From contig CAWVYO010000046.1 in the NCBI GenBank assembly GCA_963934385.1, positions 1 through 17,464 of the forward strand: a stretch of DNA of 17,464 nucleotides, read 5' to 3'. The notes under the pieces were generated by a model. That model was not told the origin of the DNA, did not search any database, and saw only the letters and a list, made by a program, of their open reading frames with translations. Positions 32-17,464 of this stretch are shown piece after piece. Position numbers and translations under genes: made by a program. Source of the DNA: an uncultured bacterium (GTDB lineage: Bacteria; Myxococcota_A; UBA796; CAJQPC01). Positions within the stretch are counted from its first letter, which is position 1, and each line of letters starts with the position of its first letter.

Positions 32-832
32 TCACGGTGCTGGCAGACAGACCATAAACCTCGTGCCTGTACGTGTCGGAATTATACGCATCTGACCTCC
101 AGCCTCGAGAACATTCTTGTGCATTCTTCGGATCGCCAGAATAGCCAAATCATGTGTTTCGCTATCAGACAATACATCCTCAGGGTCTATTGAATGGTTG
201 TGAGACCCCGAGTCTTCAACCCCTATCCAGAGCCCTGACTGACCCTGTGTAACGGTAACATGCACTCCTGTGCCCCCACCGTTTCGATCTATCACATCCA
301 GGGCTCCCTCTAATAGATGATCTACGACGTCCTGTACTAAGCGTGGATCTCCAATCACCCGACTAGGCTGAATATCTAATATTAGCGCCACACCGCGATG
401 CCTAAAGGTGTCTCTTGCGGACTTTACTGCTCGCATAGCAGCCGCCTGTGCATCTGCACCACCTTCACCTACCCACCGCTTGGGTCTTGGTGACTTAGGA
501 GCTATCCACGACCCATCATCCAAAAGCCCAAGTAACTTCTCGCCCCTCCTAACCAGTAAAGGCCTGTGAGCTGGGAGCTTGTCAACAGCTGTCGCGCCAT
601 CTACATAGAGCGCTGTTCGACCTCCGCGTATCATATCCAAGATCATTTCCGAGTCAGCTTGCTCAACTAGCGCACCAGACAAAACTCGAGCCTTTCCCGC
701 ACCATCTTGTACAGCAACATAAATTGCACCACCCTGCACTGATGCTAAAATGTCTTGAACCCTCTCAATACCCCAAACTTCCACAACAGAGGAAAGAGGT
801 AGGTCAGCTACTGAAGGTACGTGTTTTTCCAT
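32..832 (-). CDS. GHKL-family ATPase domain protein of the anti-sigma-factor / RsbW / SpoIIAB serine-kinase type (HATPase_c_2-like), with an uncharacterised ~130-aa N-terminal domain
   Basis: Complete ORF with an ATG at 830-832 and a TGA at 32-34. The C-terminal ~130 aa shows an N-box-like 'LLEGALDVIDRNGGG' and a G1-like 'LWIGVEDSGSH'. The C-terminal 'IPTRTGTRFMV' resembles SpoIIAB 'TPGKGTRVIL'. The G2 box is degenerate ('THDLAILAI'). No HisKA H-box is present, so this is not a classical sensor kinase. All of this is motif recall; no search was run. Confidence 0.5.
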   Translation of the reverse strand: MEKHVPSVADLPLSSVVEVWGIERVQDILASVQGGAIYVAVQDGAGKARVLSGALVEQADSEMILDMIRGGRTALYVDGATAVDKLPAHRPLLVRRGEKLLGLLDDGSWIAPKSPRPKRWVGEGGADAQAAAMRAVKSARDTFRHRGVALILDIQPSRVIGDPRLVQDVVDHLLEGALDVIDRNGGGTGVHVTVTQGQSGLWIGVEDSGSHNHSIDPEDVLSDSETHDLAILAIRRMHKNVLEAGGQMRIIPTRTGTRFMVCLPAP

Positions 833-994
833 TTTTCAATCTCTTCAATTATTACCACTACATTTAGCCCTGTATCCTAGGGAATCAAGATAGTATTGTC
901 GGGTTCTTGGCAGCGAAGCAAATACTACTATAGCTTGTCACAAAATTCATTATTGTTAAGCTTGATATCCATATTATTATAACCGGAGGTTCTC
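833..994. promoter_or_regulatory. AT-rich divergent intergenic region, presumed to hold promoters for the 32-832 (-) and 995-2299 (+) genes; a GGAGG ribosome-binding site sits at 985-989, 5 nt before the ATG at 995
   Basis: The 162-bp non-coding gap between divergently oriented genes is markedly AT-rich compared with its flanks. Candidate -35-like hexamers are TTGTCA (935-940) and TTGTTA (953-958), and A/T-rich -10-like hexamers lie at 972-981. None makes a clean sigma70 pair, so the exact promoter is unresolved. The RBS is clear. Confidence 0.35.
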
Positions 995-2299
995 ATGGGC
1001 TTATTTGACAGAATAAAAGGCCAATTTCTTGATGTTATCGAATGGCTAGATGACTCGAGGGATACAATTGTTTGGCGATTCCCTGTAGAAAACAACTCCA
1101 TCCAAGATGGCGGAAAACTAGTCGTCAGAGAGGGACAGGCTGCCATTTTTATTCAAGAGGGCAAGCTCTCAGATGTTTTTGGTCCCGGAACATACGAACT
1201 ATCGACCAGACTAAAAGCCATCTCGGGGTTCTTTGCGAGTATCAAATACAGCTTCAATGACCCATACAAAGGCGATGTATACTTCATTAATACCCGAAGA
1301 TTTATTGATCAAAAATGGGGCACACCTAACCCTTTTACCATGAGAGACCCGGACTTCGGACTAGTGCGCGTAAGGGCTTTTGGTAACTTCACATACAAAA
1401 TTACCGATCCCGCGATGTTCCTTCGTGAAATTGTTGGAACCGATGGCAACTTCACTACAAGCGAAATCAACGGTCAATTGAAGTCAAAGTTACTGGCTGG
1501 ATTTATCTCGTCTGTAAAAGAATCGGGCATAGGTGTTGTAGATCTTTGTGGCGCTTACATGGATCTAGGCGACAAACTTACGGATGATATTTGTCCGATT
1601 TTCCAAGACAAGTACGGTATCGCGCTGACCGATGTAAACGTGAGCAATATTTCCCCACCCCCCGAGGTAGAGGAAGCTATCGACAAGCGCAGCTCAATGG
1701 GTGCCTTGGGCAACATGAACACTTACACTCAATATCAAGCGGCCAACGCAATTGAGGCGGCAGCAAAGAACCCTGGCGGAGGAGGAACAGCAGCGACAAT
1801 GATGAGCGCTGGAATGGGCTTGGCTATGGGCAATGTAATGACTAACCAGATGTCACAGAGCTCGGCTCCCCCTCCTCCCCCAACTAGCGCGACCTACCAC
1901 TACAACGGCGATGACGGACAAGGTCAGTTTTCGACAGCACAGTTAGCTGCAAAGATCCGCGCGAACCCAACCGGAACACATAACGTATGGCAACAGGGCT
2001 GGGCGGGATGGAAGTCATGGAGTGAAGTCTCTGAGCTCTCCGGACTGGTACCCCCTCCAGCACCACCCGTAGCCCCAGAGTCCTCTACTTACCACTACAA
2101 CGGACCATCTGGAAAGTCTGAGATGTCGGCGACAGAAGTCGCTGCCAAAGTCTCGGCAGACCCTAGCGCAGAGCACCTCGTATGGAAGGAAGGGTTCGCG
2201 GGCTGGAAGGCTGCGGGAGATGTCCCTGAGATAGCGAGTTCTATGTCATCTGGACCACCACCACTACCTAGCGGCGGGCCGCCCCCTCTCCCTAAATAG
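995..2299 (+). CDS. SPFH (Band 7, Band_7_1/YdjI-like) domain protein carrying two C-terminal DUF4339/GYF_2-like domains separated by proline-rich linkers
   Basis: The ATG at 995 has a GGAGG RBS. The N-terminal 230 aa is collinear with B. subtilis YdjI: 'MGLFDRIKGQFLDVIEWLD...TIVWRFP', 'REGQAAIFIQEGKLSDVF', 'PPEVEEAIDKRSSMGALGNMNTYTQYQ', and a Met/Gly-rich 'TMMSAGMGLAMGNVMTNQM' segment. The C-terminus has two ~45-aa repeats, 'YHYNG..G.[FM]S..[QE][LV]AAK[IV].A.P...H.VW..G.AGWK', that match the DUF4339 consensus YYxxxGxxxGPxxxxEL...TLVWxxGMxxW. The PPPPP, PPPAPPVAP and C-terminal PPPLP tracts are proline-rich. Confidence 0.85.
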   Translation: MGLFDRIKGQFLDVIEWLDDSRDTIVWRFPVENNSIQDGGKLVVREGQAAIFIQEGKLSDVFGPGTYELSTRLKAISGFFASIKYSFNDPYKGDVYFINTRRFIDQKWGTPNPFTMRDPDFGLVRVRAFGNFTYKITDPAMFLREIVGTDGNFTTSEINGQLKSKLLAGFISSVKESGIGVVDLCGAYMDLGDKLTDDICPIFQDKYGIALTDVNVSNISPPPEVEEAIDKRSSMGALGNMNTYTQYQAANAIEAAAKNPGGGGTAATMMSAGMGLAMGNVMTNQMSQSSAPPPPPTSATYHYNGDDGQGQFSTAQLAAKIRANPTGTHNVWQQGWAGWKSWSEVSELSGLVPPPAPPVAPESSTYHYNGPSGKSEMSATEVAAKVSADPSAEHLVWKEGFAGWKAAGDVPEIASSMSSGPPPLPSGGPPPLPK

Positions 2300-4182: not shown

Positions 4183-7100
4183 CTACTGCTCAGCGTTATC
4201 CCAGCCAGAGGCACATTCAGGATCTTGAGAATCCGAGAAACCATCAAAATCATTATCCAAGCTGTCATTACACTGGTAAGCGACGTTGTAACCGCCCTGC
4301 TCAGTGGCCGTTGTAGATGTTGGGCAGTCGGGATCATCTGTGTCCACCCAACCGTCAGAGTCGTTATCTAGCGTGTCATTACACTCAGTGATTGGATCCG
4401 CTTCATCTGAATCAACTGCATCAGCACAGCCCAGGTCATCGGAGTCAATCAAACCGTCGCTGTCATCGTCCAACCCATTGTTACACACATAAGAAGAACT
4501 GTAGCCCCCTTGCTCGTAAAGAGTAGCCGAAGTTGCGCAGTCGGGATCATCTGTGTCGTACCAACCATCACCATCGTTGTCGATCGTGTCAGCACACTCC
4601 GCCAAGTGGCTCTCATCGGCGTCAAACGCCGACTCACAACCAAAGTCATCGGCGTCAGTGTAGCCGTCGGCGTCATCGTCAGTCCCGTTGTTACACACAA
4701 ACGAGGTCTCATAACCTAGCTCTGTTGCACTCCAAGAACAGTCAGGATCGTCTGAGTCGTACCAACCATCGCCGTCGTCGTCTGCACCATCGGAACAGGT
4801 TGCGTCAGCCACTGTCGCCTCGAGGTTATCCCAAGCGTCAAGACACTCACTGTCTTCACTATCTACAAGAGCATCCCCGTCATCATCTACGCCATTGTTA
4901 CACTCCGCAGCACCTGTGTACCCAGCCTCAGCGGTCGAGGTAACACAGTCGGGATCTTCGTCGTCAATCCAGCCGTCGCTATCGTTGTCACTGGAGTCAC
5001 TACATACGGATCCAGGGTTGGTCTCAAGGCTATCCCATGCGTTGTCGCAACCTGTATCGTTACCGTCAGTGTAGCTGTCGTTGTCGTCATCGGCGCCGTT
5101 GTTGCACTCACTAGTTATAAAGCCAACCTCTTCGCCCACATACCAGCAGTCTGGATCATCGTCGTCGATCCAGCCATCGCTATCATTGTCAGATTGGTCA
5201 TCACAAGAGGTACCATCGCCCTCTATTACATCAAACCCCGAGTCACAGTCGCTATCGGTTGAGTCCGCATAACCGTCTGAGTCGTTATCCAGTCCATCGG
5301 AGCAAGCCACTTGCCAGGAGCCATCCTCGGCGTAACCTAACAAGCAGTCTGGATCGTCATCGTCAGTCCAACCGTCGCCGTCGTTGTCACTCGAATCAGA
5401 GCAGGTGACGTCACCGTCCACCTCTGTATCCATTAGTGCCTCTAGGCAACCTGGATCCTCCGCATCGGCGTAGCCATCGAGGTCGTTATCAACACCGTCG
5501 TTACAGGCTGAAGGGAAGGCCCCTCGCTCGGCGTTACCAAACATACAGTCCGGATCAGTGTCGTCCACCCAACCATCGAGGTCATCGTCAATGGCGTTGA
5601 TACAGCTACCTGCCGCAAGGGCGTCCTCCTGGTTAGCCCAAGCGTTCAGACACTGAGGATCGTCACCATCTACAAAGCTGTCTAAATCGTTATCAACACC
5701 ATCGTGGCAGGCTGTCGATGCGAAGCTGTTGTCCTCTGAAACTCCCAACACACAGTCGGGATCATCCCCGTCTATCCAGCTGTCAAAGTCATTATCTAAT
5801 AGATCGGAACACGTAGAATCTGGATCGGACTCATTACTGTCAATCGCAAGCGCGCAGCCCGAGTCCTCAGCATCAACAAGAGAATCTGAGTCGTCGTCGA
5901 TACCATTCCCACAGACAGAAGTGCCCCAACCCAACTCAAGACCGTATACACCACAGTCAATATCGTCCGAATCGATCCAACCATCGGAGTCATTGTCTAA
6001 CTCATCCGAGCATGGGTCAGTCGACGACGCACTCAGCTCGAGGTTGTCCCACGCGTCGTCACAACCGGTATCGTTTGCGTCGATGTCACCGTCGGAGTCG
6101 TTGTCAACTCCATCGTTGCATTCAGCCAAACCAGCAGCACCACCGGACTCAACGCCACCATTAAAGCAGTCAGGGTCCTCATCGTCAACCCAACCGTCGG
6201 AGTCATCGTCCGTACCGTCCAAACAGGTGGCGTCTAGAGAGTCCTCATCTTCATCGAGCGCGTCTTCACAATCCGAATCGTCCGAGTCTATGTCTCCATC
6301 GGAGTCGTTATCAATGCCATCGTTACAGACGACAGTGGTGAACCCGACCTCCTCACCGCTAAAACTACAATCTGGATCATCTGTATCGACCCAACCATCG
6401 GAGTCATTGTCTTCAAAATCTGTGCAGACTGGCTCTGCTTGCTCGTAGTCCTGCCAAGCCACTATGCAGTCTGAGTCGGCTGCATCTATGGTGCCGTCTG
6501 AGTCGTTATCCAGCCCGTCATTACAAGCGAAACTTGTAGTTGCAGACTCATTCCCCGTAGATAGGCAGTCAATATCATCTGCGTCTGACCAGCCGTCTCC
6601 GTCATCGTCAGAGCCGTTCTCGCAGTCATCCGCATTGTCGTCTTCGACAGTGTCATAGGCGCTATCGCAACCTGTATCAACTTCGTCTATTAGCAGGTCG
6701 CCGTCGTTATCCACGCCATCGTTACACTCGGAGTCACCGTACCCCAGCTCATCCTCATCTTCGTCGCAGTCGGGATCTTGGTCGTCGATCCAACCATCGG
6801 AGTCATTGTCTAGACCGTCGCCATAGCAGGTGCCATCTACCTCATCGTCATCGAAACCGTCGTCGCAACCGATATCGTCGAAATCAACGTCACCGTCACC
6901 GTCATTGTCGCTATCGTCATTGCACTCGCTAGATGAGGTTCCTAACTCTTCGGTTCCGGTTGAGCAGTCTGGATCTAAATCATCACGCCAACCATCTTCG
7001 TCGTTGTCTTCGCCGTCAGTACAGTCAGTCGACGAGGAGCTCTCTACGTCATCTAGGGCATCAAAGCATTCAGAGTCATCAGTATCCACAGATCCATCAG

Positions 7101-9261
7101 AGTCATTATCTAGTCCGTCGTTACACTCGGTTGCACCAACACCTGACTCAACATCCGTCCCGTCACAGTCGGGGTCTTCAGCATCTATCCAGCCATCAGA
7201 ATCGTTGTCCTGAAGGTCGTTACAATCAGTAGAGATGTCTGTTTCGTCGTTGTCACTACCCTCGTTACAACCAGGATCTTCTGAATCAACAAGCCCATCT
7301 AAATCGTTGTCGCTACCGTCATTACACGCAGACGAAGAAGTTGACGGTCCCTCTTGATTATCAGTTGCCGTACCGTTGCAGCCCGGATCGTCATCATCTA
7401 TCCAGCCATCGGAGTCATTGTCCACCGAGTCGGAACATGCATACTCTTGCTCATAGAGGTCACCAGCATCATCGCAGTCATCGTCAGCAGAGTCGATGTC
7501 GCTGTCGCTGTCATTATCGACACCGTCGTTACACTGAGTTCCCGAATACCCCGTCTCTGTGCTACCTGTGACACAGTCCGGGTCTTCAGCATCTATGTAA
7601 CCATCGGAGTCGTTGTCCAACAGATCTTCACACTCACCTGCCTCAACCGTATCACTGGCTGCAGTACAGACCGTATCGAGAGCGTCTATATAGAAGTCTC
7701 CATCGTTGTCTATCCCATCGTTACACTCAGTTGAGCCCCAACCACTCTCGGAGCTGCCAACCGAGCAGTCTGGGTCATCCGCATCGATCCAGCCATCGGA
7801 GTCATTGTCCACCGAGTCTGAACAGTAGTCTTCCTCAGCGTCGTCCAGCGCATTGTCACAATCTACGTCATCAGAGTCGACCTTTCCGTCAAAGTCGTTG
7901 TCCGATCCATCGTTACACTCAGTAGTGCCGTAGCCCGCCTCGGTATCTCCTGCATCACAGTCCGGATCGTCTAAATCGATCCATCCGTCGGAATCGTTAT
8001 CCAATGAATCAGAACAGGCTTCTGCCTCGGTATCGTCGGCTGATGAGTCACAGTCAACGTCGAAACCGTCGATATCACTGTCACCGTCGTTATCTAAACC
8101 ATCGTTGCACTCAGTTGAGCCCTCAAAGCCAGATCCTTCGCTCTCGCCGTAGATACTGCCAAGACAACCCAGATCGTCAATATCAATCCAAGAGTCTGCG
8201 TCGTTATCCAGCCCGTCTTCGCAGTCGTTAAACTCGGTGTCATCTAAGGCATCGGCACAACTAGGATCAAAGAAGTCAGTAGACAGATCACCGTCGTTAT
8301 CAACACCATCGTTGCACTCAACTGAGCCATAACCGACCTCTTCATCCCCAGTCGTACAATCGGGATCGTACACGTCAGTCCAGCCATCGCCGTCGTTGTC
8401 TACCTCATCGGAACATCCCGGCAGAAACTCTGTAGCTAATGAATCGATACACTCTGGATCATCGGAATCAGTGAGACCGTCGTTATCGTTATCCAGACCA
8501 TCATTGCACTCATAATCGGTATAGTCGCCGTTCTCTACACCCGCTACTAGGCACTCTGGGTCGTCGGCATCAGTCCAGCCATCGAAATCGTTGTCTAGAC
8601 CGTCGTCACAGATACTTATTTCTGATTCATCAGTTGCGACATCGCACTCTTCGTCCTCACGATCAATGAGACCATCTTCGTCGTTATCTAGACCGTCATT
8701 ACACTCGCCATCGCCAAAACCAGTCTCCTCAATCGAAGAGTCGCAGTCGGGATCTTCCTCGTCAACCCAACCGTCTAAATCGTTATCGTCTCCGTCATTA
8801 CAGGGGTGAATTGGCGTATCTAAGAGTGAAAACCCTGTGATCGTCACCTCTTGAACGGTCTGATCAGCAAAGGAGTATTCTTCGGTTGCTGGAGAAGATG
8901 CGATCAAAGTCACACCACTCCAACCAAGGGCCAAGAAGCTCATAGAGGGACTGTTGTTCCCCTGCTTCAGCTCTAATATTTTAAACCCCTCGTCCAGATC
9001 ATACAGATAGGCGGCCTCTAACTCGGGGTCGTCTTCTACCCAGTCAGCGAACAATAGAGCGCCCTGCTCTCCAGCCACTATCTCATCTCCAGACGAATCT
9101 AAAAACGGGCTGCTTGGATCTATAATAACACCAACAGCATCTGCCATTCCCGATAGGGCGCTAGCCTCCTCAGTATCGATTCCAACCAAAATGGAAGTGG
9201 GGGTCTCTGGAGCCGTACAGGCAGACAACAAGATCGCCAATGGGATAATATTTAACTTCAC
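4183..9261 (-). CDS. Giant (1692 aa) highly acidic tandem-repeat lipoprotein built from about 46 Cys-bracketed DxDxDG-type putative Ca2+/metal-binding 21-mers (MopE-like / thrombospondin-type-3-like motif), preceded by a ~150-aa N-terminal domain of unknown function
   Basis: The GTG start at 9259-9261 has an AGAGG about 9 nt upstream. A lipoprotein signal 'MKLNIIPLAILLSAC' gives a lipobox L-S-A-C. Residues 154-1690 consist of repeats with core 'C-[NS]-D-G-x-D-N-D-x-D-G-x-x-D-x-x-D-P-x-C', alternating between a 'DGW[IVT]D..DPDC' subtype and an 'ECNDG.DND' subtype. Asp and Glu are extremely abundant, Lys and Arg almost absent, and there are about 93 Cys. A long ORF running through a repetitive region with no frameshifts argues that this is a real gene. 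Confidence 0.9.
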   Translation of the reverse strand: MKLNIIPLAILLSACTAPETPTSILVGIDTEEASALSGMADAVGVIIDPSSPFLDSSGDEIVAGEQGALLFADWVEDDPELEAAYLYDLDEGFKILELKQGNNSPSMSFLALGWSGVTLIASSPATEEYSFADQTVQEVTITGFSLLDTPIHPCNDGDDNDLDGWVDEEDPDCDSSIEETGFGDGECNDGLDNDEDGLIDREDEECDVATDESEISICDDGLDNDFDGWTDADDPECLVAGVENGDYTDYECNDGLDNDNDGLTDSDDPECIDSLATEFLPGCSDEVDNDGDGWTDVYDPDCTTGDEEVGYGSVECNDGVDNDGDLSTDFFDPSCADALDDTEFNDCEDGLDNDADSWIDIDDLGCLGSIYGESEGSGFEGSTECNDGLDNDGDSDIDGFDVDCDSSADDTEAEACSDSLDNDSDGWIDLDDPDCDAGDTEAGYGTTECNDGSDNDFDGKVDSDDVDCDNALDDAEEDYCSDSVDNDSDGWIDADDPDCSVGSSESGWGSTECNDGIDNDGDFYIDALDTVCTAASDTVEAGECEDLLDNDSDGYIDAEDPDCVTGSTETGYSGTQCNDGVDNDSDSDIDSADDDCDDAGDLYEQEYACSDSVDNDSDGWIDDDDPGCNGTATDNQEGPSTSSSACNDGSDNDLDGLVDSEDPGCNEGSDNDETDISTDCNDLQDNDSDGWIDAEDPDCDGTDVESGVGATECNDGLDNDSDGSVDTDDSECFDALDDVESSSSTDCTDGEDNDEDGWRDDLDPDCSTGTEELGTSSSECNDDSDNDGDGDVDFDDIGCDDGFDDDEVDGTCYGDGLDNDSDGWIDDQDPDCDEDEDELGYGDSECNDGVDNDGDLLIDEVDTGCDSAYDTVEDDNADDCENGSDDDGDGWSDADDIDCLSTGNESATTSFACNDGLDNDSDGTIDAADSDCIVAWQDYEQAEPVCTDFEDNDSDGWVDTDDPDCSFSGEEVGFTTVVCNDGIDNDSDGDIDSDDSDCEDALDEDEDSLDATCLDGTDDDSDGWVDDEDPDCFNGGVESGGAAGLAECNDGVDNDSDGDIDANDTGCDDAWDNLELSASSTDPCSDELDNDSDGWIDSDDIDCGVYGLELGWGTSVCGNGIDDDSDSLVDAEDSGCALAIDSNESDPDSTCSDLLDNDFDSWIDGDDPDCVLGVSEDNSFASTACHDGVDNDLDSFVDGDDPQCLNAWANQEDALAAGSCINAIDDDLDGWVDDTDPDCMFGNAERGAFPSACNDGVDNDLDGYADAEDPGCLEALMDTEVDGDVTCSDSSDNDGDGWTDDDDPDCLLGYAEDGSWQVACSDGLDNDSDGYADSTDSDCDSGFDVIEGDGTSCDDQSDNDSDGWIDDDDPDCWYVGEEVGFITSECNNGADDDNDSYTDGNDTGCDNAWDSLETNPGSVCSDSSDNDSDGWIDDEDPDCVTSTAEAGYTGAAECNNGVDDDGDALVDSEDSECLDAWDNLEATVADATCSDGADDDGDGWYDSDDPDCSWSATELGYETSFVCNNGTDDDADGYTDADDFGCESAFDADESHLAECADTIDNDGDGWYDTDDPDCATSATLYEQGGYSSSYVCNNGLDDDSDGLIDSDDLGCADAVDSDEADPITECNDTLDNDSDGWVDTDDPDCPTSTTATEQGGYNVAYQCNDSLDNDFDGFSDSQDPECASGWDNAEQ
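4186..8802 (-). repeat. Imperfect coding tandem repeat: about 23 di-repeats of ~200 bp (about 46 21-codon motif units plus linkers) inside the giant lipoprotein gene
   Basis: The first repeat Cys is residue 154 (codon at 8800-8802) and the last repeat ends just before the stop. The nucleotide sequence is GAC/GAT/AAC/GGN-rich and recurs with period ~100 and ~200 bp. Copies are diverged, with no long identical stretches, which is consistent with an old array under selection. Confidence 0.85.
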
Positions 9262-10343
9262 GGTAGCAACACCTCTACATCACCAGTTGGTGCCGGTTCA
9301 GGCTTCATTGATTCGGCGACAACTGCCCCCGTGACACCCACTCCTACAGTTCCAGCACCTACAGCAGCCCAGAAGGTCCAGCGAGATGTAAGCGGGGATA
9401 TAATCTCCAGAGTCGAGCTGTCTGGTGATCCCTCCTGAAACAACGTGGCCCTGTAGCTTACTCTTCCCTCTCTAGGGACCCTCACCGACCGCTCAACAAC
9501 CTGAACTCCAGGAGCTTCTACCCTTACAAGGTAAGTCCCTCGAGCAATATCTAAAGAGACCTTAGGACCCTCTCCAATTAGATGACCGTCCACATAGACC
9601 AGGGCACTATCGTTTCCCGTCTTAACCAGAAGCTCGGGCGAATCGGCCACCATTGTGACCTGTACATCCCCCCTAGTACCATCAGACGTGTCGACCTCGC
9701 GCAGCGCTGTGCCATAACCTTCTAATTGGATACGCACGCGGTGAGCCCCACTCTCAATCTCTGTTAGACTCAGGGGAGTTACACCAACAAGTTCGCTATC
9801 TAGATATACATTTGCACCGCTTGGGTTCGAGCCAAAAGAGAACAGACCTTGGGATGACTGTAACTGCTCAAAAATGAGTACATTGGCTCCATCCGTGTAT
9901 GTGAAGCTTCCAGAGACTGGTTCGTGCTGCGGCGCAATCAATGTGAACTCGTGATCGCCAACGGGCATGTCACTAAGCCTAATAGGAGCGCTACCCATAG
10001 CCTGACCATCAACTGTTACTGTCGCGCCAGTTGGGGTCACCATAAACTCTACTGTACCGCTGCCAGAGAATAGCTCTGCAGATACTTCACTGGGAACGCC
10101 CTCCGATATACCAACCCTAGTCGCCCAGGGAGTGAAGTTATCCGCCACGATCCTTATTGAGTGACTACCTACAGTCAACTCACCTTCATACGGGGTGACT
10201 CCGACCTCTACGTAATCGACGTAAACATTAGCGCCATCAACGTTTGAAACAACCGATATTGTTCCCATTGGATCAGCCAAGGCAGAGGATCCTACGAATA
10301 GGCATATAGGCAGCAGGTGTTTGATGGTTCTTATCAAGCTCAT
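9258..10343 (-). CDS. PEGA-domain protein (4 tandem PEGA domains) with N-terminal signal peptide and C-terminal transmembrane anchor
   Basis: The ATG at 10341-10343 has an AGGAGA about 11 nt upstream. The signal peptide is 'MSLIRTIKHLLPICLFVGSSALA'. Four segments fit the PEGA pattern G-A-x-V-Y-V-D-G-x-x-[LV]-G-x-T-P...G-x-H-x-[VI]-R-[IV]: 'GANVYVDYVEVGVTP..GSHSIRI', 'GATVTVDGQAMGSAP..GDHEFTL', 'GANVYLDSELVGVTP..GAHRVRI' and 'ALVYVDGHLIGEGP..GTYLVRV'. The C-terminal hydrophobic stretch is 'WTFWAAVGAGTVGVGVTGAVVA'. The TGA stop at 9258-9260 overlaps the GTG start of the downstream giant gene. Confidence 0.85.
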   Translation of the reverse strand: MSLIRTIKHLLPICLFVGSSALADPMGTISVVSNVDGANVYVDYVEVGVTPYEGELTVGSHSIRIVADNFTPWATRVGISEGVPSEVSAELFSGSGTVEFMVTPTGATVTVDGQAMGSAPIRLSDMPVGDHEFTLIAPQHEPVSGSFTYTDGANVLIFEQLQSSQGLFSFGSNPSGANVYLDSELVGVTPLSLTEIESGAHRVRIQLEGYGTALREVDTSDGTRGDVQVTMVADSPELLVKTGNDSALVYVDGHLIGEGPKVSLDIARGTYLVRVEAPGVQVVERSVRVPREGRVSYRATLFQEGSPDSSTLEIISPLTSRWTFWAAVGAGTVGVGVTGAVVAESMKPEPAPTGDVEVLLP

Positions 10344-10405: not shown

Positions 10406-11206
10406 CTATCTGATCGCAATTCCATCGTGATAGATAGCCCAATAAACAGATCCTGCACCTAGAGAGAGTATTATCGGCAATGCTACTGCCCCCCATTGAG
10501 AGGGAGTAACACTCAAAATAACTGGCTCATAAACTGGAGCAGATCGCCCTGTCCTGGACGGCAACAGAGTCACCACCTCGACCCTATCCTCCATCCTGGC
10601 TCCTTCAACCTGGACTAAGTGACGCCCCGGAGAAAGCGATGAGATTTCCACTAATTCTTGATTTGAGATATTGCGCGTAACGCCATCAACTATCAACCTT
10701 GCAGCTGCTGGCTCTAATTCTACAATTAGATCGGCTGTGGTGCTAAACAGTAAGCCCGCTGCTGCCAGGTCGACCCCGCCTCCACGAGGTAGGTTCATCT
10801 GTAAAGGCTCTACAAGGAGCGCTCCTTCGGCTCCAAATATCTGTGTGTAGCCTATCTCTCTTGTACCCAAAAAACCTAATTCCACCCTCACCAGTAAATC
10901 CAAACCAAGGGACGTTACAGCGTCACGCCAACAAACTCCTCGTTCTCCGCAGCGCTCTCCTAAACTGGCAAGAATCCCCGCGTTAGAGCTTCCGTCCGAA
11001 AGCGAGGAGGTCAATTCGTAGTTGACGCTACCTCGAAAAAACTGCTCAAACCCCTCTACTGTCTTGGGGCTAACGGACACCGGAAGAGAGGCGTCATCAA
11101 CCACAGCCACCCCAACGCCCAAAGGCGCAGGCCAGCTCTCTACAGACTCTACAGCCTGTGAAACTCCACTCAAAAGGAACATGGGGATCAAGAGTTTCAA
11201 GCACAC
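10406..11206 (-). CDS. Secreted, membrane-anchored hypothetical protein with one PEGA-like segment
   Basis: The GTG start at 11204-11206 has an AGGA just upstream. The signal peptide is 'MCLKLLIPMFLLSGVSQA'. The PEGA-like stretch is 'ARLIVDGVTRNISNQELVEISSLSPGRHLVQVEGAR'. A C-terminal TM segment reads 'WGAVALPIILSLGAGSVYWAIY'. No other recognisable domain is present. Confidence 0.65.
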   Translation of the reverse strand: MCLKLLIPMFLLSGVSQAVESVESWPAPLGVGVAVVDDASLPVSVSPKTVEGFEQFFRGSVNYELTSSLSDGSSNAGILASLGERCGERGVCWRDAVTSLGLDLLVRVELGFLGTREIGYTQIFGAEGALLVEPLQMNLPRGGGVDLAAAGLLFSTTADLIVELEPAAARLIVDGVTRNISNQELVEISSLSPGRHLVQVEGARMEDRVEVVTLLPSRTGRSAPVYEPVILSVTPSQWGAVALPIILSLGAGSVYWAIYHDGIAIR

Positions 11207-11220
11207 TTTCCTAAAGCCCG

Positions 11221-11736
11221 CTACTGTAACAACCCTGACAATTCGGACTCAAGCTCGGACTCGAGCTGCCCGGCGTTCGGGGCTCCGACTGCAAACAGGT
11301 CGCCACTGGGGTCGATAATAAAGGTCATTGGCAGCATAGATACACCGTACCTCGCCGCAACAACACGATGATTGTCACGCAACACAGGGAAGTCTAGTCC
11401 CTGACCCTCGATCCAATTCGAAAGCTCACCGAGCTCGCCCTGATCAACGCTTACTCCAAAAACCTGAAGCCCGTCACGACGGTGGGAATTATAGACTGAA
11501 TTAAGTTCAGCCAACCCACTACCACCGCTATCTTTAGCAAAGAAATAGAGAACTACACTGCTTCGATTAGAAGGATCATCTGTAATCTCTGCCAAAGATA
11601 TCCTAGAGCCAGACGCTTCTGTTGTCGCCTCGTTAATAGCCGGAAGACTAAAAAGACTCGCTGGCTCACCTACACTTGGGACCTGAGCATTTGCGGCAAG
11701 AGAAAATAACAATGGAAATATTAGGCTCACGAACAC
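11221..11736 (-). CDS. Thioredoxin-fold (TlpA/ResA/redoxin-like) secreted protein with the CxxC active site replaced by SGGS, predicted redox-inactive
   Basis: The signal peptide is 'MFVSLIFPLLFSLAANA'. The protein is collinear with the TlpA/AhpC-TSA redoxin pattern: 'VVLYFFAKDSGGSGLAEL' corresponds to 'vLvnFWAsWCgPCr.E.P', so Ser sits at both Cys positions. Then 'GLQVFGVSVD', 'GLDFPVLRDNHRVVAARYGVSMLPMTFIIDPSGDL' and the cis-Pro 'LP' before the beta-strand are conserved. The annotated start is the GTG at 11736. The GTG two codons downstream (11728-11730) has better AAGAGG spacing and may be the true start. Confidence 0.7.
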   Translation of the reverse strand: MFVSLIFPLLFSLAANAQVPSVGEPASLFSLPAINEATTEASGSRISLAEITDDPSNRSSVVLYFFAKDSGGSGLAELNSVYNSHRRDGLQVFGVSVDQGELGELSNWIEGQGLDFPVLRDNHRVVAARYGVSMLPMTFIIDPSGDLFAVGAPNAGQLESELESELSGLLQ

Positions 11737-14665: not shown

Positions 14666-15514
14666 CTATTCTTCGTCACCACAAAGGTCTGGGTTAGCTG
14701 TGCAGAACTCAAAGAGATTGTTGTTACAGAACGCTGATTCAAGAGCTTCGAACGGCTCGTGCGCCAAATCCATATTATCTGCATCGCGAGCTTCCGATGG
14801 CATAGTACACTCGGTTAGACCGCCAATAGAGCTAGCGATATCATTACATGCGCCATCTACGATAGCGAAAGCGTAATCTACCAATCCATCATCAAGGGGT
14901 ACTGAGAAGGTGTTGAGTACAACTGTGTAGCTCTTACCAGGGTGTACAGAGGTGTCAATTGTACAATACTCAATGGCACCGCGACCACCGTGGGCATCGG
15001 GAAGGTTACCGTAACCCGCCATGTAGCACTCGTTGAACTCAAGGCGGACCTCGTTCCCGAGAGAATCCTCGTAAACAGCAGCAAAGTCGCCCATTTCGTA
15101 ACCTGGCGAGCCTGTATAGTAAGCAGTAAGACCTACCTCTAGGTCAATGTCACCATCATCTTTGTAGTTGTCTTGGTATGAATAGTTTTCGGTTGGAGAC
15201 TGCGCACTTACAGACTCGTTCCAAAACACTGCTTCTGGGTCGACCATAACGCAAACCTCTCCGCCTGTTCCAGCGAAAGTCAAGGTCGTTCCACCGTACG
15301 TCCCTGCATCTGCAGCTCCAATGCGACCGTAGTGGATCACCTCTGTACGAGAGTCCTGGAAGTCTCCAAGCTCAATAACACCCATCTCTCCTAGATCCTG
15401 AACACCTGGGTAGTTAGGGTTTGGCTCTGAGAGATATGTACGACCTTCACGGTCACAAGCTGCCAGCGTTAAACCGACAACAGAGATGGAAACAATAGCC
15501 TTAGATATAGTCAT
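14666..15514 (-). CDS. Cys-rich lipoprotein of unknown function
   Basis: The ORF track extends to a TTG at 15533-15535 (the bases are CAA on the + strand). The ATG at 15512-15514 gives a canonical lipoprotein signal 'MTISKAIVSISVVGLTLAAC' with lipobox L-A-A-C, and an AGAGGA lies 8-9 nt upstream. That start also removes the overlap with the upstream gene, leaving a 4-nt gap. The mature protein has about 8 further Cys. Confidence 0.7.
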   Translation of the reverse strand: MTISKAIVSISVVGLTLAACDREGRTYLSEPNPNYPGVQDLGEMGVIELGDFQDSRTEVIHYGRIGAADAGTYGGTTLTFAGTGGEVCVMVDPEAVFWNESVSAQSPTENYSYQDNYKDDGDIDLEVGLTAYYTGSPGYEMGDFAAVYEDSLGNEVRLEFNECYMAGYGNLPDAHGGRGAIEYCTIDTSVHPGKSYTVVLNTFSVPLDDGLVDYAFAIVDGACNDIASSIGGLTECTMPSEARDADNMDLAHEPFEALESAFCNNNLFEFCTANPDLCGDEE

Positions 15515-15518
15515 AATA

Positions 15519-16436
15519 TTAATCCTCTGCTCCAACTAGATAGTCCATTCGAACACTTACCTCTGAAGCAGATAACTCGGCTGCCCTGTAGGAATCAGCA
15601 TCTGGCTCAGTGAAAACATACGGTGCTTGTACCGTCCAATCTCCGTCGTAAATGTACTTACTCGGGAAGTTGATAAGGTCTGTAAAGTTAGCACCGTAGT
15701 AGTAATCGTTAGAATACTCGTTATTCTCCTGACCACGATCTAGATCGCAAGTTGAAAAGGTGAAGTTCTCACTAGGTGAGTCCATCCAACCCCAAATCTT
15801 CATGTCTTTTTCGTAGGTAACCTGCCAAAGGTCGAACTCTGCCTCGTAGTCACCATCAGCATTCTGCTGAAAGTCCAGATCTGAGACTATGTTGCCATCG
15901 GTGTCTAGATATTCTGACAGGAACGACAACTCACGGTCTGTGGTCATCTCAAAGAGTTCGTAGCAGTATGCTCGGAAATACTCATCGGAATCTACAACCT
16001 GCCCGAACTCATCGACAACAGGGTCACCCAAGGTGTCGCTGTACCAGTTCAAGATGTCATCGAAGTTCTTAAAGCGACCAGTGACGATCCTACAGGAGAG
16101 GTCCGAGAAACAGGCAAAGTCGTAACGACCAACTGTTCCGCCACCATATGGGTAGGTGTTACCAGGGGTTCCATCTACAATGATGGGGCCCATCTCGGGG
16201 TGTGGGTAACCGAAGTCGTCAGTGCTTACACTTGGAAACACACCGAGGATAACAGGGCCGATAGCCCTCACATCTTCGACTTCTTCCGTATCGCCTGTCT
16301 TTGCGTCAGTAACGGTAAAGACCGCTGCTTCACGTGGTAGAACGACTGTACCGCGAACATCAACCTGAGGGAGGTGCTCGTCAAAGGTGCAGCCTGTGAT
16401 CGCGATAACCGCGAGAGATAAAACAAGTGTCCGCAT
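15519..16436 (-). CDS. Lipoprotein of unknown function
   Basis: The ATG is at 16434-16436. The signal is 'MRTLVLSLAVIAITGC' with lipobox I-T-G-C. Only 2 nt separate the upstream gene's TGA (16439-16441) from this start. There are 5 further Cys and an Asp/Tyr-rich C-terminal half. I recognise no family. Confidence 0.7.
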   Translation of the reverse strand: MRTLVLSLAVIAITGCTFDEHLPQVDVRGTVVLPREAAVFTVTDAKTGDTEEVEDVRAIGPVILGVFPSVSTDDFGYPHPEMGPIIVDGTPGNTYPYGGGTVGRYDFACFSDLSCRIVTGRFKNFDDILNWYSDTLGDPVVDEFGQVVDSDEYFRAYCYELFEMTTDRELSFLSEYLDTDGNIVSDLDFQQNADGDYEAEFDLWQVTYEKDMKIWGWMDSPSENFTFSTCDLDRGQENNEYSNDYYYGANFTDLINFPSKYIYDGDWTVQAPYVFTEPDADSYRAAELSASEVSVRMDYLVGAED

Positions 16437-16438
16437 AA

Positions 16439-17464
16439 TCAGTACTCGTATTTAAGTGAGAGGGCGATTTGAAGTGGGCTCTGGCGAGAGTAGATGAACC
16501 AACGGTTCTGTGTACCAATACCAGTATTTACAGAGTCAGCCTGCTGCGCGTTTATAGAATTCTGCAGCTGACCAATCAGCCACAGTTTTCCTCGACGAAC
16601 GTCGATAGCTTGCTGAGCCATCAGGTCGATGTAGTAGGTTGGCTCAGTTCTAGCATAAGTTCCAACGTGGTCTTTCAACTGTGCATTTCCGCCGTACCCT
16701 ACAGTGTAGTAGTAACGGGTAACAGGGTAGCCAGAGAAGTATGAGAACTGGAACCCAAGACGCGTAGTCCAAGGATCGTTAGGGAAGTCATACGACCCTG
16801 CCATCTTGATTTGGTGACGAATATCAGTTGGAAGGTTTCCGTATTTCAGCTCGTATTGGGGTGGAATAGCCAACCCTGAATCTGAGCCCGTCTGGATGGT
16901 ACCACGTGAGACGACATAGGAATATGTCGAGAGCAGCTGCCATCTGTCGGAGAAGTTCTTCTTTAGTGATACGTCTGTCTGGTAGTAGTCACGACGAGAC
17001 ACTGTTGGTGTCCTTAGTCGTAAGTACTGAGCAGTATTACCGTTTGAGGTACCTACGAAGCTGTAACCATCTTGATCCCAAACAACGTTTGTCTCATCAA
17101 ACACGTAGACATTTGATGTGAACTTTGCAGAGAAGTTCACGTCGAATACGATGTCTTGGTAAAGCTCACGAGCACCACCAATTGTGAACTCGTCTGAGTG
17201 TGGTGCCGTAAGGTGCTCACCAACTCGGTTTGTGTTCTCTAGTGGAACCTGATCGGCCTCTTCAACAGAAGAGCTTGTGAAGTTGTCGAACAACTCGCCA
17301 ACAAAGAGCTTGTAACCAAACCCCGATTGAGAGAGGTCATTCGCAACACCGAGGTTTGAGATGCTGTTAAAGCGACCATAACCACCACGGATAACCGTAC
17401 GCTCATCACCCCAAGGGTCCCAAGCCATGTAGAATCGTGGTCCAAGAACGCTAACATCGACAAC
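16439..17464 (-). CDS. Outer-membrane beta-barrel protein, C-terminal portion (5' end lies beyond the window); possibly TonB-dependent-receptor-like or another large OMP
   Basis: The reading frame stays open to the window edge: upstream of the first Met the frame reads '...VVDVSVLGPRFY' with no stop. The sequence alternates aromatic and hydrophilic residues in the manner of amphipathic beta-strands and is rich in Y, G, N, T and S. The C-terminus '...LSLKYEY' ends in an aromatic residue, the typical beta-barrel assembly signal. The family call is tentative. Confidence 0.6.
   Translation of the reverse strand, partial: VVDVSVLGPRFYMAWDPWGDERTVIRGGYGRFNSISNLGVANDLSQSGFGYKLFVGELFDNFTSSSVEEADQVPLENTNRVGEHLTAPHSDEFTIGGARELYQDIVFDVNFSAKFTSNVYVFDETNVVWDQDGYSFVGTSNGNTAQYLRLRTPTVSRRDYYQTDVSLKKNFSDRWQLLSTYSYVVSRGTIQTGSDSGLAIPPQYELKYGNLPTDIRHQIKMAGSYDFPNDPWTTRLGFQFSYFSGYPVTRYYYTVGYGGNAQLKDHVGTYARTEPTYYIDLMAQQAIDVRRGKLWLIGQLQNSINAQQADSVNTGIGTQNRWFIYSRQSPLQIALSLKYEY

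What the first reader, a model, noticed from the sequence alone, without database searches (positions are those of the whole stretch)
4183..9261. Giant polyanionic lipoprotein built from about 46 Cys-bracketed DxDxDG loops, a candidate high-capacity Ca2+/metal-binding envelope protein
**Motif.** After a lipoprotein signal and a ~150-aa N-domain, about 1540 aa consist almost entirely of a 21-residue unit 'C-x-D-G-x-D-N-D-x-D-G-x-x-D-x-x-D-P-x-C'. I count 46 by eye. The embedded D-N-D-x-D-G-x-x-D is the classic DxDxDG calcium-binding loop found in thrombospondin type-3 repeats and many bacterial Ca-binding repeats. The 'C.DG.DNDxDG' core also resembles the MopE-like putative metal-binding motif, which in its canonical form reads CDGxDNDCDG. 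Here the internal Cys is absent and a Cys pair brackets the loop instead.

**Scale.** With two Cys per unit, each loop is plausibly closed by a disulfide. The protein would carry roughly 600 acidic residues, almost no Lys or Arg, and about 46 potential metal sites tethered to a membrane by an N-terminal lipid anchor. That is reminiscent of calsequestrin or phosphophoryn-like ion buffers, or of biomineralisation or S-layer-associated proteins. I do not recognise a bacterial protein with this exact architecture and length.
Basis: partly seen in the sequence, partly recalled or inferred. Interest (0 to 1): 0.85.

Follow-up and report, generated by a model that had tools for sequence, protein, structure and literature searches.

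The report
Giant calcium-binding repeat lipoprotein of Myxococcota
This gene encodes a real 1692-residue membrane-anchored protein made of 46 small acidic loops, each closed by one disulfide and matching a module shown by crystallography to bind calcium in animal teneurins; the repeat is already catalogued and widespread, so this is an extreme member of a known but unstudied family.

Summary
ORF 4183..9261 (-) encodes a 1692-aa protein: signal peptide with lipobox (Cys15), a 139-aa N-domain, then 46 units of 20 aa (C-x-D-G-x-D-N-D-x-D-G-x-x-D-x-x-D-P-D-C). There are 564 acidic and 7 basic residues.

The repeat is not new. NCBIfam NF033662 ("acidic double-disulfide repeat") matches at E=1.9e-194, and a profile of the repeat finds 10,306 protein clusters.

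A profile of the units hits only teneurin C-rich domains in the PDB (7PLP, E=6.8e-6; hhalign 97.8%). In that 1.5 Å structure the same Asp/Asn positions bind three Ca2+. The two Cys that correspond to the unit's bracketing Cys form a disulfide. Calcium binding is therefore well supported by homology, at about 92-138 sites rather than 46.

About 24 uncultured Myxococcota MAG species carry orthologues with the same lipobox, N-domain and 28-49 units. About half of the units are positionally orthologous. A translationally coupled PEGA-domain partner gene is also conserved.

The units are a 2-Cys variant of the 4-Cys family type. The biological role (structural stalk or layer versus calcium buffer) is untested. 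I rate it a new member of a known kind, of moderate interest.

The parts
4183..9261 (-). Whole gene: 1692-aa acidic repeat lipoprotein (GTG start at 9261, stop at 4183-4185)
   Evidence: ORF list and translation. NF033662 E=1.9e-194 with 45 stretches. Orthologues cover residues ~1-1692 in 20+ MAG species.
9217..9261 (-). Signal peptide with lipobox (MKLNIIPLAILLSA|C; Cys15 is the predicted lipidated residue)
   Evidence: Read from the sequence. Lipobox-type L-x-[GA]-C is present at the same place in 21 of 24 orthologues. Lipidation itself is inferred.
8803..9216 (-). Lineage-specific N-domain (residues 16-153), membrane-proximal, of unknown fold
   Evidence: Aligned across 19 orthologues; invariant P38, E83, G87, F117. 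No Pfam hit and no PDB sequence hit. Also present at residues 48-187 of the LTD-containing relative P0001.
4213..8802 (-). Array of 46 disulfide-bracketed 20-aa acidic units (residues 154-1683), alternating type B and type A, in 23 super-repeats of about 67 aa
   Evidence: Profile vs PDB hits only teneurin C-rich domains. hhalign 97.8%. AF2 with a repeat alignment gave pLDDT 67 with almost no secondary structure.
8743..8802 (-). Unit 1 (residues 154-173, CNDGDDNDLDGWVDEEDPDC)
   Evidence: Positionally orthologous to unit 1 of L001, L002 and L011.
4213..4272 (-). Unit 46 (residues 1664-1683, CNDSLDNDFDGFSDSQDPEC)
   Evidence: The terminal unit is conserved in orthologues.
4183..4212 (-). Short conserved C-terminal tail (ASGWDNAEQ plus stop); no distal domain and no sorting tag
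   Evidence: Nearly all orthologues end about 10 aa after the last unit with C-x-x-G-x-D-N-x-E.
9258..10343 (-). Partner gene: 361-aa secreted protein with 4 PEGA domains and a C-terminal hydrophobic helix. Its TGA stop overlaps the giant gene's GTG start (GTGA).
   Evidence: Pfam PEGA E=1.5e-48, 4 stretches. Sequence and junction. Found immediately upstream of the giant gene in about 27 of 38 related loci. The 4-nt overlap recurs in 12 or more loci.
9261..9389 (-). Conserved C-terminal module of the PEGA partner: RWTFW, then a Gly/Ala-rich hydrophobic helix, then PEPAPTGDVEVLLP-COOH
   Evidence: The same module, always ending in LP, is present in about 20 orthologous loci.
9272..9275 (-). Shine-Dalgarno-like GAGG, 10 nt upstream of the GTG start and inside the PEGA coding sequence
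   Evidence: Read from the junction sequence. Function is inferred.

Best explanation
The gene encodes a Sec-exported, N-terminally lipid-anchored protein whose functional part is a chain of 46 small calcium-dependent knots.

Proposed mechanism:
1. After export into the oxidising envelope, the two consecutive Cys of each 20-aa unit form a disulfide (C1-C20).
2. The invariant D6, D8, D10, D14 and D17, with N7 and backbone carbonyls, wrap two Ca2+ ions as in thrombospondin type-3 repeats and the teneurin C-rich domain.
3. In about half of the units D3, D19 and an upstream acidic residue could complete a third site. That gives roughly 92-138 bound Ca2+ per chain.
4. Calcium is therefore structural. 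It turns an otherwise self-repelling polyanion (net charge -558) into a string of rigid beads joined by short acidic linkers.
5. The lipid anchor, the membrane-proximal N-domain and the co-translated PEGA-domain partner hold this string in the cell envelope.

I consider it most likely a calcium-stiffened structural stalk or polyanionic, cation-loaded envelope layer, rather than a dynamic calcium store.

Shown: the architecture, the family membership by HMM, the homology to a crystallographically defined Ca2+ site, the conservation and the gene pairing.

Inferred: lipidation, disulfide pairing, Ca2+ stoichiometry, localisation (periplasm or surface) and the biological role.
For: Architecture and motif statistics.

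Family: NF033662 scores 628.9 bits against a cut-off of 41.

Homology to a solved Ca2+ site:
- Only teneurin C-rich domains are hit in the PDB (7PLP E=6.8e-6, also Ten-m and Ten2).
- hhalign gives 97.8% probability, E=8.9e-13.
- Identity to eukaryotic cores reaches 16/20.
- The Ten4 crystal structure shows 3 Ca2+ bound by D840, D843, N844, D845, D847, D851, D854, D856 and E835, and a C838-C857 disulfide. These map onto unit positions 3, 6, 7, 8, 10, 14, 17, 19 and C1-C20. Every invariant acidic position of the unit (D6, D8, D10, D14, D17) maps onto a Ca2+ ligand.

Conservation:
- About 24 species-level orthologues have Cys = 2n+1, a lipobox and 23-30% Asp.
- 23 of 46 units are positionally orthologous to L002, against about 1 expected by chance.
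- The array-only C-terminus is conserved.

Stalk-like use in relatives:
- P0001 has the same N-domain, then units, then LTD domains.
- Other family members combine the repeat with PKD, DUF11, PPC, TIG, VWA and beta-helix domains.

Partner: the PEGA gene is syntenic and overlaps the giant gene by 4 nt.

AF2: the model is loop-only, with moderately confident units (pLDDT 70-80) and weaker linkers.
Against: - There is no experimental datum for any bacterial member. Literature searches found none.
- Fold searches with the AF2 model returned nothing, so the link to teneurin rests on sequence profiles of a 20-aa, compositionally biased motif.
- The third Ca2+ site is uncertain. The E835 equivalent is not in register, and D19 is D or E in only 31 of 45 units.
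- The protein has no distal domain to display, which fits a pure cation-binding role as well as a stalk.
- Localisation is unresolved. The residue after the lipidated Cys varies among orthologues, and the partner's hydrophobic helix has its basic residues on the unexpected side.
Confidence: 0.55

Rival explanations
1. High-capacity divalent-cation sink. The protein would act mainly as a calsequestrin-like Ca2+ (or Mg2+/metal) buffer, a periplasmic Donnan polyanion, or a nucleator of mineral formation. The number of sites would be the selected property, not the shape.
For: There are about 92-138 predicted Ca2+ sites plus 165 further acidic residues in the linkers, and net charge is -558. The chain has no distal functional domain. 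The unit number differs between clades, from 28 to 49.
Against: Unit number and order are conserved within clades (46 or 38), with positional orthology. That is more than capacity alone would require. The homologous sites in teneurin and TSP are structural, fully coordinated sites. In relatives the array links domains like a spacer. No calsequestrin or thioredoxin-fold domain is detected in the protein.
Confidence: 0.25
2. Adhesin or bridging fibre. The Ca2+-loaded acidic array would itself be the adhesive element, binding other cells, prey, exopolysaccharide or mineral surfaces through cation bridges. This requires it to be displayed on the cell surface.
For: The repeat co-occurs with adhesin-type modules (PKD, TIG, DUF11, VWA, LTD, beta-helix) in many family members, including DPANN archaea and CPR bacteria that lack a classical periplasm. 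Teneurin uses the homologous domain in a Ca2+-dependent protein interface.
Against: No surface-export signal or sorting tag was detected. The partner appears to be anchored in a membrane by a C-terminal helix, which would favour a periplasmic complex. There is no direct evidence for any ligand.
Confidence: 0.14
3. Copper or other transition-metal binding, in the manner implied by the name of Pfam PF11617 (Cu-binding_MopE).
For: One type-A unit shows sub-threshold similarity to PF11617 (16.2 bits, E=0.012). The motif resemblance was noted by Tucker et al. 2012.
Against: PF11617 does not reach its gathering score (27 bits) and does not hit the whole protein. MopE binds Cu through His132, His203 and kynurenine-130, not through the Asp/Cys motif, and calcium stabilises MopE. 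The protein has only 3 His and 5 Met in 1692 residues. Its Cys are predicted to be tied up in disulfides.
Confidence: 0.04
4. Artefact: a mis-assembled or non-coding low-complexity stretch.
For: None was found.
Against: There is no DNA-level tandem repeat. Full-length orthologues at 40-58% identity occur in about 24 independent MAGs, three of them with about 46 units (46, 46 and 45 detected). Units show positional orthology. The partner gene and the start/stop overlap are conserved.
Confidence: 0.01

Closest known systems
NCBIfam NF033662, 'acidic double-disulfide repeat-containing protein' (curated repeat model; no publication found)
   Same: The model matches 45 of the 46 units (628.9 bits, E=1.9e-194). 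Both share the acidic C-x-D-G-x-D-N-D-x-D-G-x-x-D-x-x-D-P-D-C core and a secreted or lipoprotein context.
   Different: The 4-Cys members have E-x-C-x-D-G-x-D-N-D-x-D-G-x-x-D-C-x-D-P-D-C-x5-C with a period of about 32 aa; from the model's name and 32-position length I infer, without having seen the model, that these are the type NF033662 was built on. The window units have only the outer Cys pair, longer linkers (11-18 aa) and an A/B alternation. With 46 units it is among the longest arrays seen; the maximum was 49, in orthologue L010.
Teneurin C-rich domain (human Teneurin-4 residues 834-871, PDB 7PLP; Meijer et al. 2022, PMC9058538)
   Same: The 20-aa core is homologous (E=6.8e-6; 97.8%; up to 16/20 identity). 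All Ca2+-ligand Asp/Asn positions are conserved, as are the Cys1-Cys3 disulfide positions. NF033662 itself scores the Ten4 core at 36.2 bits.
   Different: Teneurin has a single copy with six Cys (1-3, 2-5, 4-6) and a conotoxin-like C-terminal half. It sits between EGF8 and the TTR domain of a eukaryotic type II receptor. The window protein has 46 copies with two Cys each and no YD-shell context.
Thrombospondin type-3 repeats (TSP-1 and TSP-2 'wire'; PDB 1UX6, as cited in PMC9058538)
   Same: Both have the DxDxDGxxDxxD motif that binds two Ca2+ per motif, and a loop-only architecture stabilised by Ca2+ and disulfides. The Ten4 authors state that Ca sites I and II match T3 repeats. The window protein has 42 exact DxDxD[GS]xxDxxD matches.
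   Different: There is no hit to Pfam TSP_3 or to TSP structures, even at E<=10. The Cys placement differs: bracketing within a unit here, rather than the disulfide pattern of T3 repeats (the latter from general knowledge).
Pfam PF11617 Cu-binding_MopE ('putative metal-binding motif')
   Same: Shares the C-x-D-G-x-D-N-D-x-D-G half-motif. The resemblance of the teneurin core to PF11617 has been published.
   Different: The match is below threshold (16.2 vs 27 bits). The internal Cys (DNDCDG) is absent: 4 of 2360 units in the family sample carry it. The MopE copper site is elsewhere in that protein.
Ca2+-rigidified repeat extenders of giant bacterial adhesins (for example RTX adhesins with Ca2+-dependent Ig-like repeats); comparison from general knowledge only
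   Same: The concept is shared: many tandem Ca2+-dependent modules forming a long extender anchored at one end. Relatives of the window protein place the array between an anchor domain and distal domains.
   Different: The fold and motif are unrelated, there is no T1SS signal, and the window protein has no distal ligand-binding domain.

Membership tests
NCBIfam NF033662 acidic double-disulfide repeat | HMM score above the curated cut-off (41 bits) | tested here: met
   628.9 bits, E=1.9e-194, 45 stretches. A 4-unit fragment scores 86.3 bits.
NCBIfam NF033662 acidic double-disulfide repeat | Four Cys (two disulfides) per repeat of about 32 aa, as the family name implies and as seen in 4-Cys members | tested here: not met
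   Window units have exactly 2 Cys: 93 Cys = 1 + 2x46. The 4-Cys subtype (Cys15 plus a Cys 6 residues after C20) is seen in 23 other proteins. The model's own description could not be read.
Teneurin C-rich domain | Core motif C-x-D-x-x-D-N-D-x-D-G-x-x-D-x-x-D-P-D-C with the Ca2+-ligand residues | tested here: met
   PDB profile search E=6.8e-6. hhalign 97.8%. Ligand positions are invariant or nearly so.
Teneurin C-rich domain | Six Cys with 1-3, 2-5, 4-6 pairing and the consensus tail CCxxxxCxxxxxC | tested here: not met
   Only the equivalents of Cys 1 and 3 are present. The full 6-Cys pattern is absent from all 241 family proteins sampled.
Teneurin C-rich domain | Ca2+ actually bound, and the C1-C20 disulfide actually formed | not testable with these tools
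   Inferred from 7PLP. The AF2 model carries no ions and its coordinates could not be inspected.
Thrombospondin type-3 repeat (Pfam TSP_3) | Match to the family HMM | tested here: not met
   No TSP_3 hit for the whole protein, for fragments or for single units at E<=10. No TSP chain appears in the PDB profile search.
Thrombospondin type-3 repeat (Pfam TSP_3) | DxDxDGxxDxxD calcium motif | tested here: met
   All 46 units have the five Asp, and 42 match DxDxD[GS]xxDxxD, against 0.46 expected in shuffles.
Pfam PF11617 Cu-binding_MopE | HMM gathering score (27 bits) and the internal Cys of C-x-D-G-x-D-N-D-C-D-G | tested here: not met
   The best score is 16.2 bits, on one type-A unit, and there is nothing on the whole protein. 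No internal Cys is present.
EF-hand | Helix-loop-helix HMM match above threshold | tested here: not met
   EF-hand_7 scores only 16.1 bits against a cut-off of 30 on one fragment. The AF2 model has almost no helices.
Bacterial lipoprotein (Sec/SPII) | N-terminal signal peptide with lipobox [LVI][ASTVI][GAS]C | tested here: met
   MKLNIIPLAILLSAC. An equivalent lipobox is present in 21 of 24 orthologues. This is pattern matching only; no dedicated predictor was available and lipidation is untested.
Calsequestrin-like Ca2+ buffer | Thioredoxin-fold domains with low-affinity, high-capacity surface acidic sites | tested here: not met
   No Pfam domain of any kind is detected in the protein. The sites are discrete, motif-defined loops.

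The most novel reading that the evidence does not exclude
In this uncultured Myxococcota lineage the giant lipoprotein and its PEGA partner would form a dedicated envelope structure built from a calcium-loaded polyanionic protein with more than 100 Ca2+ sites per chain. The length of the chain would be under selection, as suggested by arrays of 46 or 38 units kept in register between species. It would act as a molecular ruler or spacer, or as a protein analogue of anionic envelope polymers, docked through an interaction between C-rich units and a transthyretin-like (PEGA) domain that parallels the C-rich/TTR contact in teneurins.
Probability: 0.15. Interest if true: 0.65.

Novelty: new member of a known kind. 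Interest (0 to 1): 0.4.

Why it matters
The protein gives a concrete, testable handle on a very large family (more than 10,000 clusters) of secreted prokaryotic repeat proteins that has no experimental characterisation. Its unit can now be tied, residue by residue, to a crystallographically defined three-calcium site in animal teneurins.

If the predicted stoichiometry holds, this orthologous group would be among the most calcium-dense polypeptides known. That would make it a natural model for how calcium and single disulfides turn a polyanion into a defined structure in bacterial envelopes.

The comparison also bears on the origin of the teneurin C-rich domain. Its Cys 1, 2, 3 and 5 spacing is exactly that of the abundant bacterial 4-Cys repeat.

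The repeat itself and its likely metal-binding nature were already catalogued, however, so the finding refines existing knowledge rather than overturning it.

Tried and rejected
1. Pfam scans of the whole protein, of four fragments and of single units gave no family above threshold. Only weak EF-hand_7 and PF11617 matches appeared.

3. An exact-sequence look-up of the neighbouring AspRS found no source contig. The window's own genome is not among the species representatives; the best orthologue is 58% identical.

4. The N-domain has no Pfam hit and no PDB hit. The word-indexed profile search found only two fragments.

5. I considered that the thioredoxin-like gene at 11221..11736 might be a dedicated disulfide oxidoreductase. 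I rejected this because it has SGGS in place of CxxC and is not syntenic in related loci.

6. Literature searches for the NCBIfam name, NF033662 and PF11617 in bacteria found nothing beyond Tucker et al. 2012. A broad 'MopE' search was mostly noise. The PEGA domain literature is limited to its 2004 description and incidental mentions.

7. Copper binding is rejected on composition and on the known MopE site.
Full report

Yes. The window has a 1692-codon ORF on the minus strand at 4183..9261 with a GTG start. It begins with a typical lipoprotein signal (MKLNIIPLAILLSAC).

The protein has 93 Cys: the lipobox Cys15 plus 46 pairs. Of the 46 Cys-to-Cys units, 45 are exactly 20 residues long and one is 21. 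Linkers are 11-18 residues.

In the 45 canonical units C1, D6, D8, D10, D14, D17 and C20 are invariant. D3 is D in 38 and N in 7. N7 is N in 36 and D in 9. The strict motif occurs 45 times, against 0.001 expected in composition-preserving shuffles.

Asp makes up 26.1% of residues. D+E is 564, K+R is 7, and the net charge of the mature chain is -558.

This gives 23 super-repeats of about 67 aa with conserved Glu, Gly and aromatic positions in the linkers.

**2. Is it an artefact?**

No. Tandem Repeats Finder detects no DNA-level repeat in the gene, so the units are old and diverged.

A scan of species-representative genomes found 38 related loci. All are from uncultured Myxococcota or 'Deltaproteobacteria' MAGs; some carry obviously wrong NCBI labels. 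Many of them match the query from residue ~1 to 1692 at 40-58% identity.

The extracted orthologues are 1180-2091 aa long with 28-49 units, with modes at 38 and 46. Complete genes typically have Cys = 2n+1, a lipobox and 23-30% Asp. Nearly all end about 10 aa after the last unit with a conserved tail.

Window unit i finds its best match at unit i of the 55%-identical L002 protein in 23 of 46 cases, where about 1 is expected by chance. The A/B parity is preserved. The array is therefore ancient and static, not expanding or being homogenised.

**3. What is the repeat?**

Pfam finds nothing above threshold in the whole protein, in fragments or in single units. The only matches are EF-hand_7 at 16.1 bits and PF11617 at 16.2 bits against a cut-off of 27. 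TSP_3 never hits.

NCBIfam has a curated model, NF033662 'acidic double-disulfide repeat-containing protein'. It matches 45 units at 628.9 bits (E=1.9e-194).

The family is large. The word-indexed search returned more than 1383 proteins with partner domains LTD, PKD, DUF11, PPC, TIG, VWA, beta-helix and CarboxypepD_reg. They come from Myxococcota, DPANN archaea and CPR bacteria. An exhaustive profile search of 1.84 billion cluster representatives found 10,306 proteins at E<=1e-3 and 876 at E<=1e-30.

**4. Link to a solved structure**

A profile of the 45 canonical units hits only teneurin C-rich domains in the whole PDB: Ten4 7PLP at E=6.8e-6, 7BAM and 7BAN at 6.9e-4, fly Ten-m at 0.019 and Ten2 at 0.15.

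Profile-profile comparison with 11 teneurin, diatom and Volvox cores gives 97.8% probability, E=8.9e-13. Individual window units are up to 16/20 identical to the C. elegans Ten-1 core. NF033662 itself scores the human Ten4 core at 36.2 bits.

Meijer et al. 2022 (PMC9058538) solved this domain at 1.5 Å. Three Ca2+ ions are coordinated by E835, D840, D843, N844, D845, D847, D851, D854 and D856, plus the carbonyls of A837, K842 and L849. The authors report that sites I and II match thrombospondin type-3 repeats and that site III resembles LDL-receptor A modules. The disulfides are 1-3 (C838-C857), 2-5 and 4-6.

Mapping C838 to unit position 1 places the ligands at positions 3, 6, 7, 8, 10, 14, 17 and 19, and places C857 at position 20. 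Every invariant acidic position of the window unit therefore maps onto a Ca2+ ligand.

By homology each unit is closed by a C1-C20 disulfide and binds two Ca2+ through DxDxDGxxDxxD. All 46 units are complete for this motif. In the 23 units that also have D/N3, D/E19 and an upstream acid there may be a third ion. That makes about 92-138 sites per chain.

**5. Subtypes**

In a sample of 241 family proteins (2360 strict units), 19% of units carry Cys15. This is always a whole-protein trait and is seen in 23 proteins.

These proteins have the unit E-x-C-x-D-G-x-D-N-D-x-D-G-x-x-D-C-x-D-P-D-C-x5-C with a period of about 32 aa. This explains the 'double-disulfide' name. The spacing is that of teneurin Cys 1, 2, 3 and 5.

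The window protein and its closest relatives are the 2-Cys subtype. All 46 of their predicted disulfides join consecutive Cys. From general knowledge, this is the pattern most easily formed by DsbA-type oxidation during export; this point is an inference.

**6. Structure prediction**

Single-sequence AF2 failed (pLDDT 43). With an alignment of in-protein repeat windows the model reached mean pLDDT 67. Units scored about 70-80, linkers scored lower, and there was almost no secondary structure.

**7. Genomic context**

The gene immediately upstream (9258..10343, -) encodes a secreted protein with four PEGA domains (E=1.5e-48) and a C-terminal hydrophobic helix. Its TGA stop overlaps the GTG start of the giant gene, and a GAGG lies 10 nt upstream.

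A PEGA gene is immediately upstream in about 27 of the 38 related loci. The 4-nt overlap recurs in at least 12 loci. The PEGA proteins share a conserved C-terminal module: RWxFW, a Gly/Ala-rich helix, then PxPxPxGDxxVxLP-COOH.

The other upstream genes are not syntenic elsewhere. They are a 266-aa secreted protein and a thioredoxin-fold protein. The latter has SGGS where CxxC should be, so it is not a dedicated oxidoreductase.

The N-domain (residues 16-153) is conserved among orthologues but has no Pfam or PDB relatives. It recurs in P0001, where it is followed by about 30 units, a 650-aa region with LTD domains, and then more units. There the array clearly acts as a spacer between an anchor-proximal domain and distal domains.

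**8. Mechanism and function**

The best-supported account is the one given under the best explanation: export, lipidation, one disulfide per unit and 2-3 structural Ca2+ per unit. The result would be a calcium-stiffened polyanionic string held in the envelope by the lipid anchor, the N-domain and the PEGA partner.

I favour a structural role (stalk, spacer or cation-loaded layer) over a dynamic buffer for three reasons:
- The homologous sites are structural.
- Unit number and order are conserved within clades.
- Relatives use the array as a linker.

The lack of any distal domain keeps the buffer or sink reading alive.

Copper binding of the MopE type is unlikely. MopE's Cu site is His/His/kynurenine, and this protein has only 3 His.

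Localisation, whether periplasm or surface, cannot be decided from the sequence.

**9. Comparison with what is known, and novelty**

The motif class has been noticed before. Tucker et al. 2012 aligned the teneurin core with a diatom glucosidase, a Volvox gametolysin and PF11617. Jackson et al. 2019 repeat this. NCBIfam curates the bacterial repeat.

No paper on a bacterial member was found. A 2026 paper on bacterial teneurin-like proteins does not discuss the C-rich domain.

What is new here:
- Recognition of a conserved orthologous group (lipobox, novel N-domain, 28-49 single-disulfide units and nothing else, with a coupled PEGA partner) in uncultured Myxococcota.
- The residue-level mapping of its units onto the Ten4 calcium sites.

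I classify it as a new member of a known kind, with variant features (2 Cys, A/B alternation, extreme copy number). Interest is moderate: a striking protein with a now well-grounded biochemical prediction, but not a new principle.

Noticed in passing
window 9261..9389 (-); also L001-L026 immediately upstream of the giant gene: The PEGA partner proteins all end with the same unexplained C-terminal module: [RK]WxFW, a Gly/Ala-rich hydrophobic helix, then P[ED]PxPxGDxxVxLP-COOH. The basic residues lie on the N-terminal side of the helix. It is not a sorting tag I recognise. Part of the conservation may reflect the downstream gene's ribosome-binding site.
   Followed up: partly
family proteins P0051, P0079, P0123, P0127, P0144, P0224 (not in the window): Bacterial 4-Cys units (E.C.DG.DND.DG..DC.DPDC.....C) have exactly the spacing of teneurin Cys 1, 2, 3 and 5. 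NF033662 scores the human Ten4 C-rich core at 36.2 bits. This suggests the teneurin C-rich domain could derive from this abundant bacterial repeat rather than from a diatom or algal gene as proposed in 2012. The full 6-Cys teneurin pattern was not found in the 241 bacterial and archaeal proteins sampled.
   Followed up: partly
window 11221..11736 (-): A secreted AhpC/TSA (ResA-like) thioredoxin-fold protein has no Cys at all; the CxxC position reads SGGS. It is presumably redox-inactive. It is not syntenic with the giant gene in related loci.
   Followed up: partly
window 10406..11206 (-): A 266-aa ORF has a signal peptide, a C-terminal hydrophobic helix and a stretch that looks PEGA-like by eye. 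It has no Pfam or NCBIfam hit and is not conserved next to the giant gene elsewhere.
   Followed up: no
window 14666..17428 (-): Two adjacent acidic predicted lipoproteins (289 and 305 aa, with LTLAAC and AITGC lipoboxes) sit beside an ORF ending in ...LSLKYEY, which resembles the C-terminus of an outer-membrane beta-barrel. None has a Pfam or NCBIfam hit. A weak homologue of the last ORF lies near the giant gene in L004.
   Followed up: no
window 32..2299; L023, L025, L027: The SPFH/Band-7 plus GYF_2 protein (995..2299, +) and the 266-aa ORF (32..832, -) are found elsewhere next to a second, shorter paralogue of the acidic repeat protein. In contig CAZRYF010000002 that paralogue lies about 20 kb from the long one. 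The lineage therefore carries at least two repeat-protein loci.
   Followed up: partly
family proteins P0052 and P0100 (Myxococcota); window 9258..10343: The repeat is fused to CarboxypepD_reg (transthyretin-like) domains in some Myxococcota proteins, and it is operon-linked to PEGA here; the PEGA protein also gives a sub-threshold CarboxypepD_reg match. In teneurin the C-rich domain packs against a TTR domain. This may be a recurrent C-rich/TTR-like partnership, but it is untested.
   Followed up: no
L001-L038 record titles: Several MAGs that carry clear orthologues are labelled Enterobacterales, Klebsiella pneumoniae or Rickettsiales in their NCBI titles. This is inconsistent with the Myxococcota or Deltaproteobacteria labels of the other loci, and the labels are probably taxonomic mis-assignments.
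   Followed up: no
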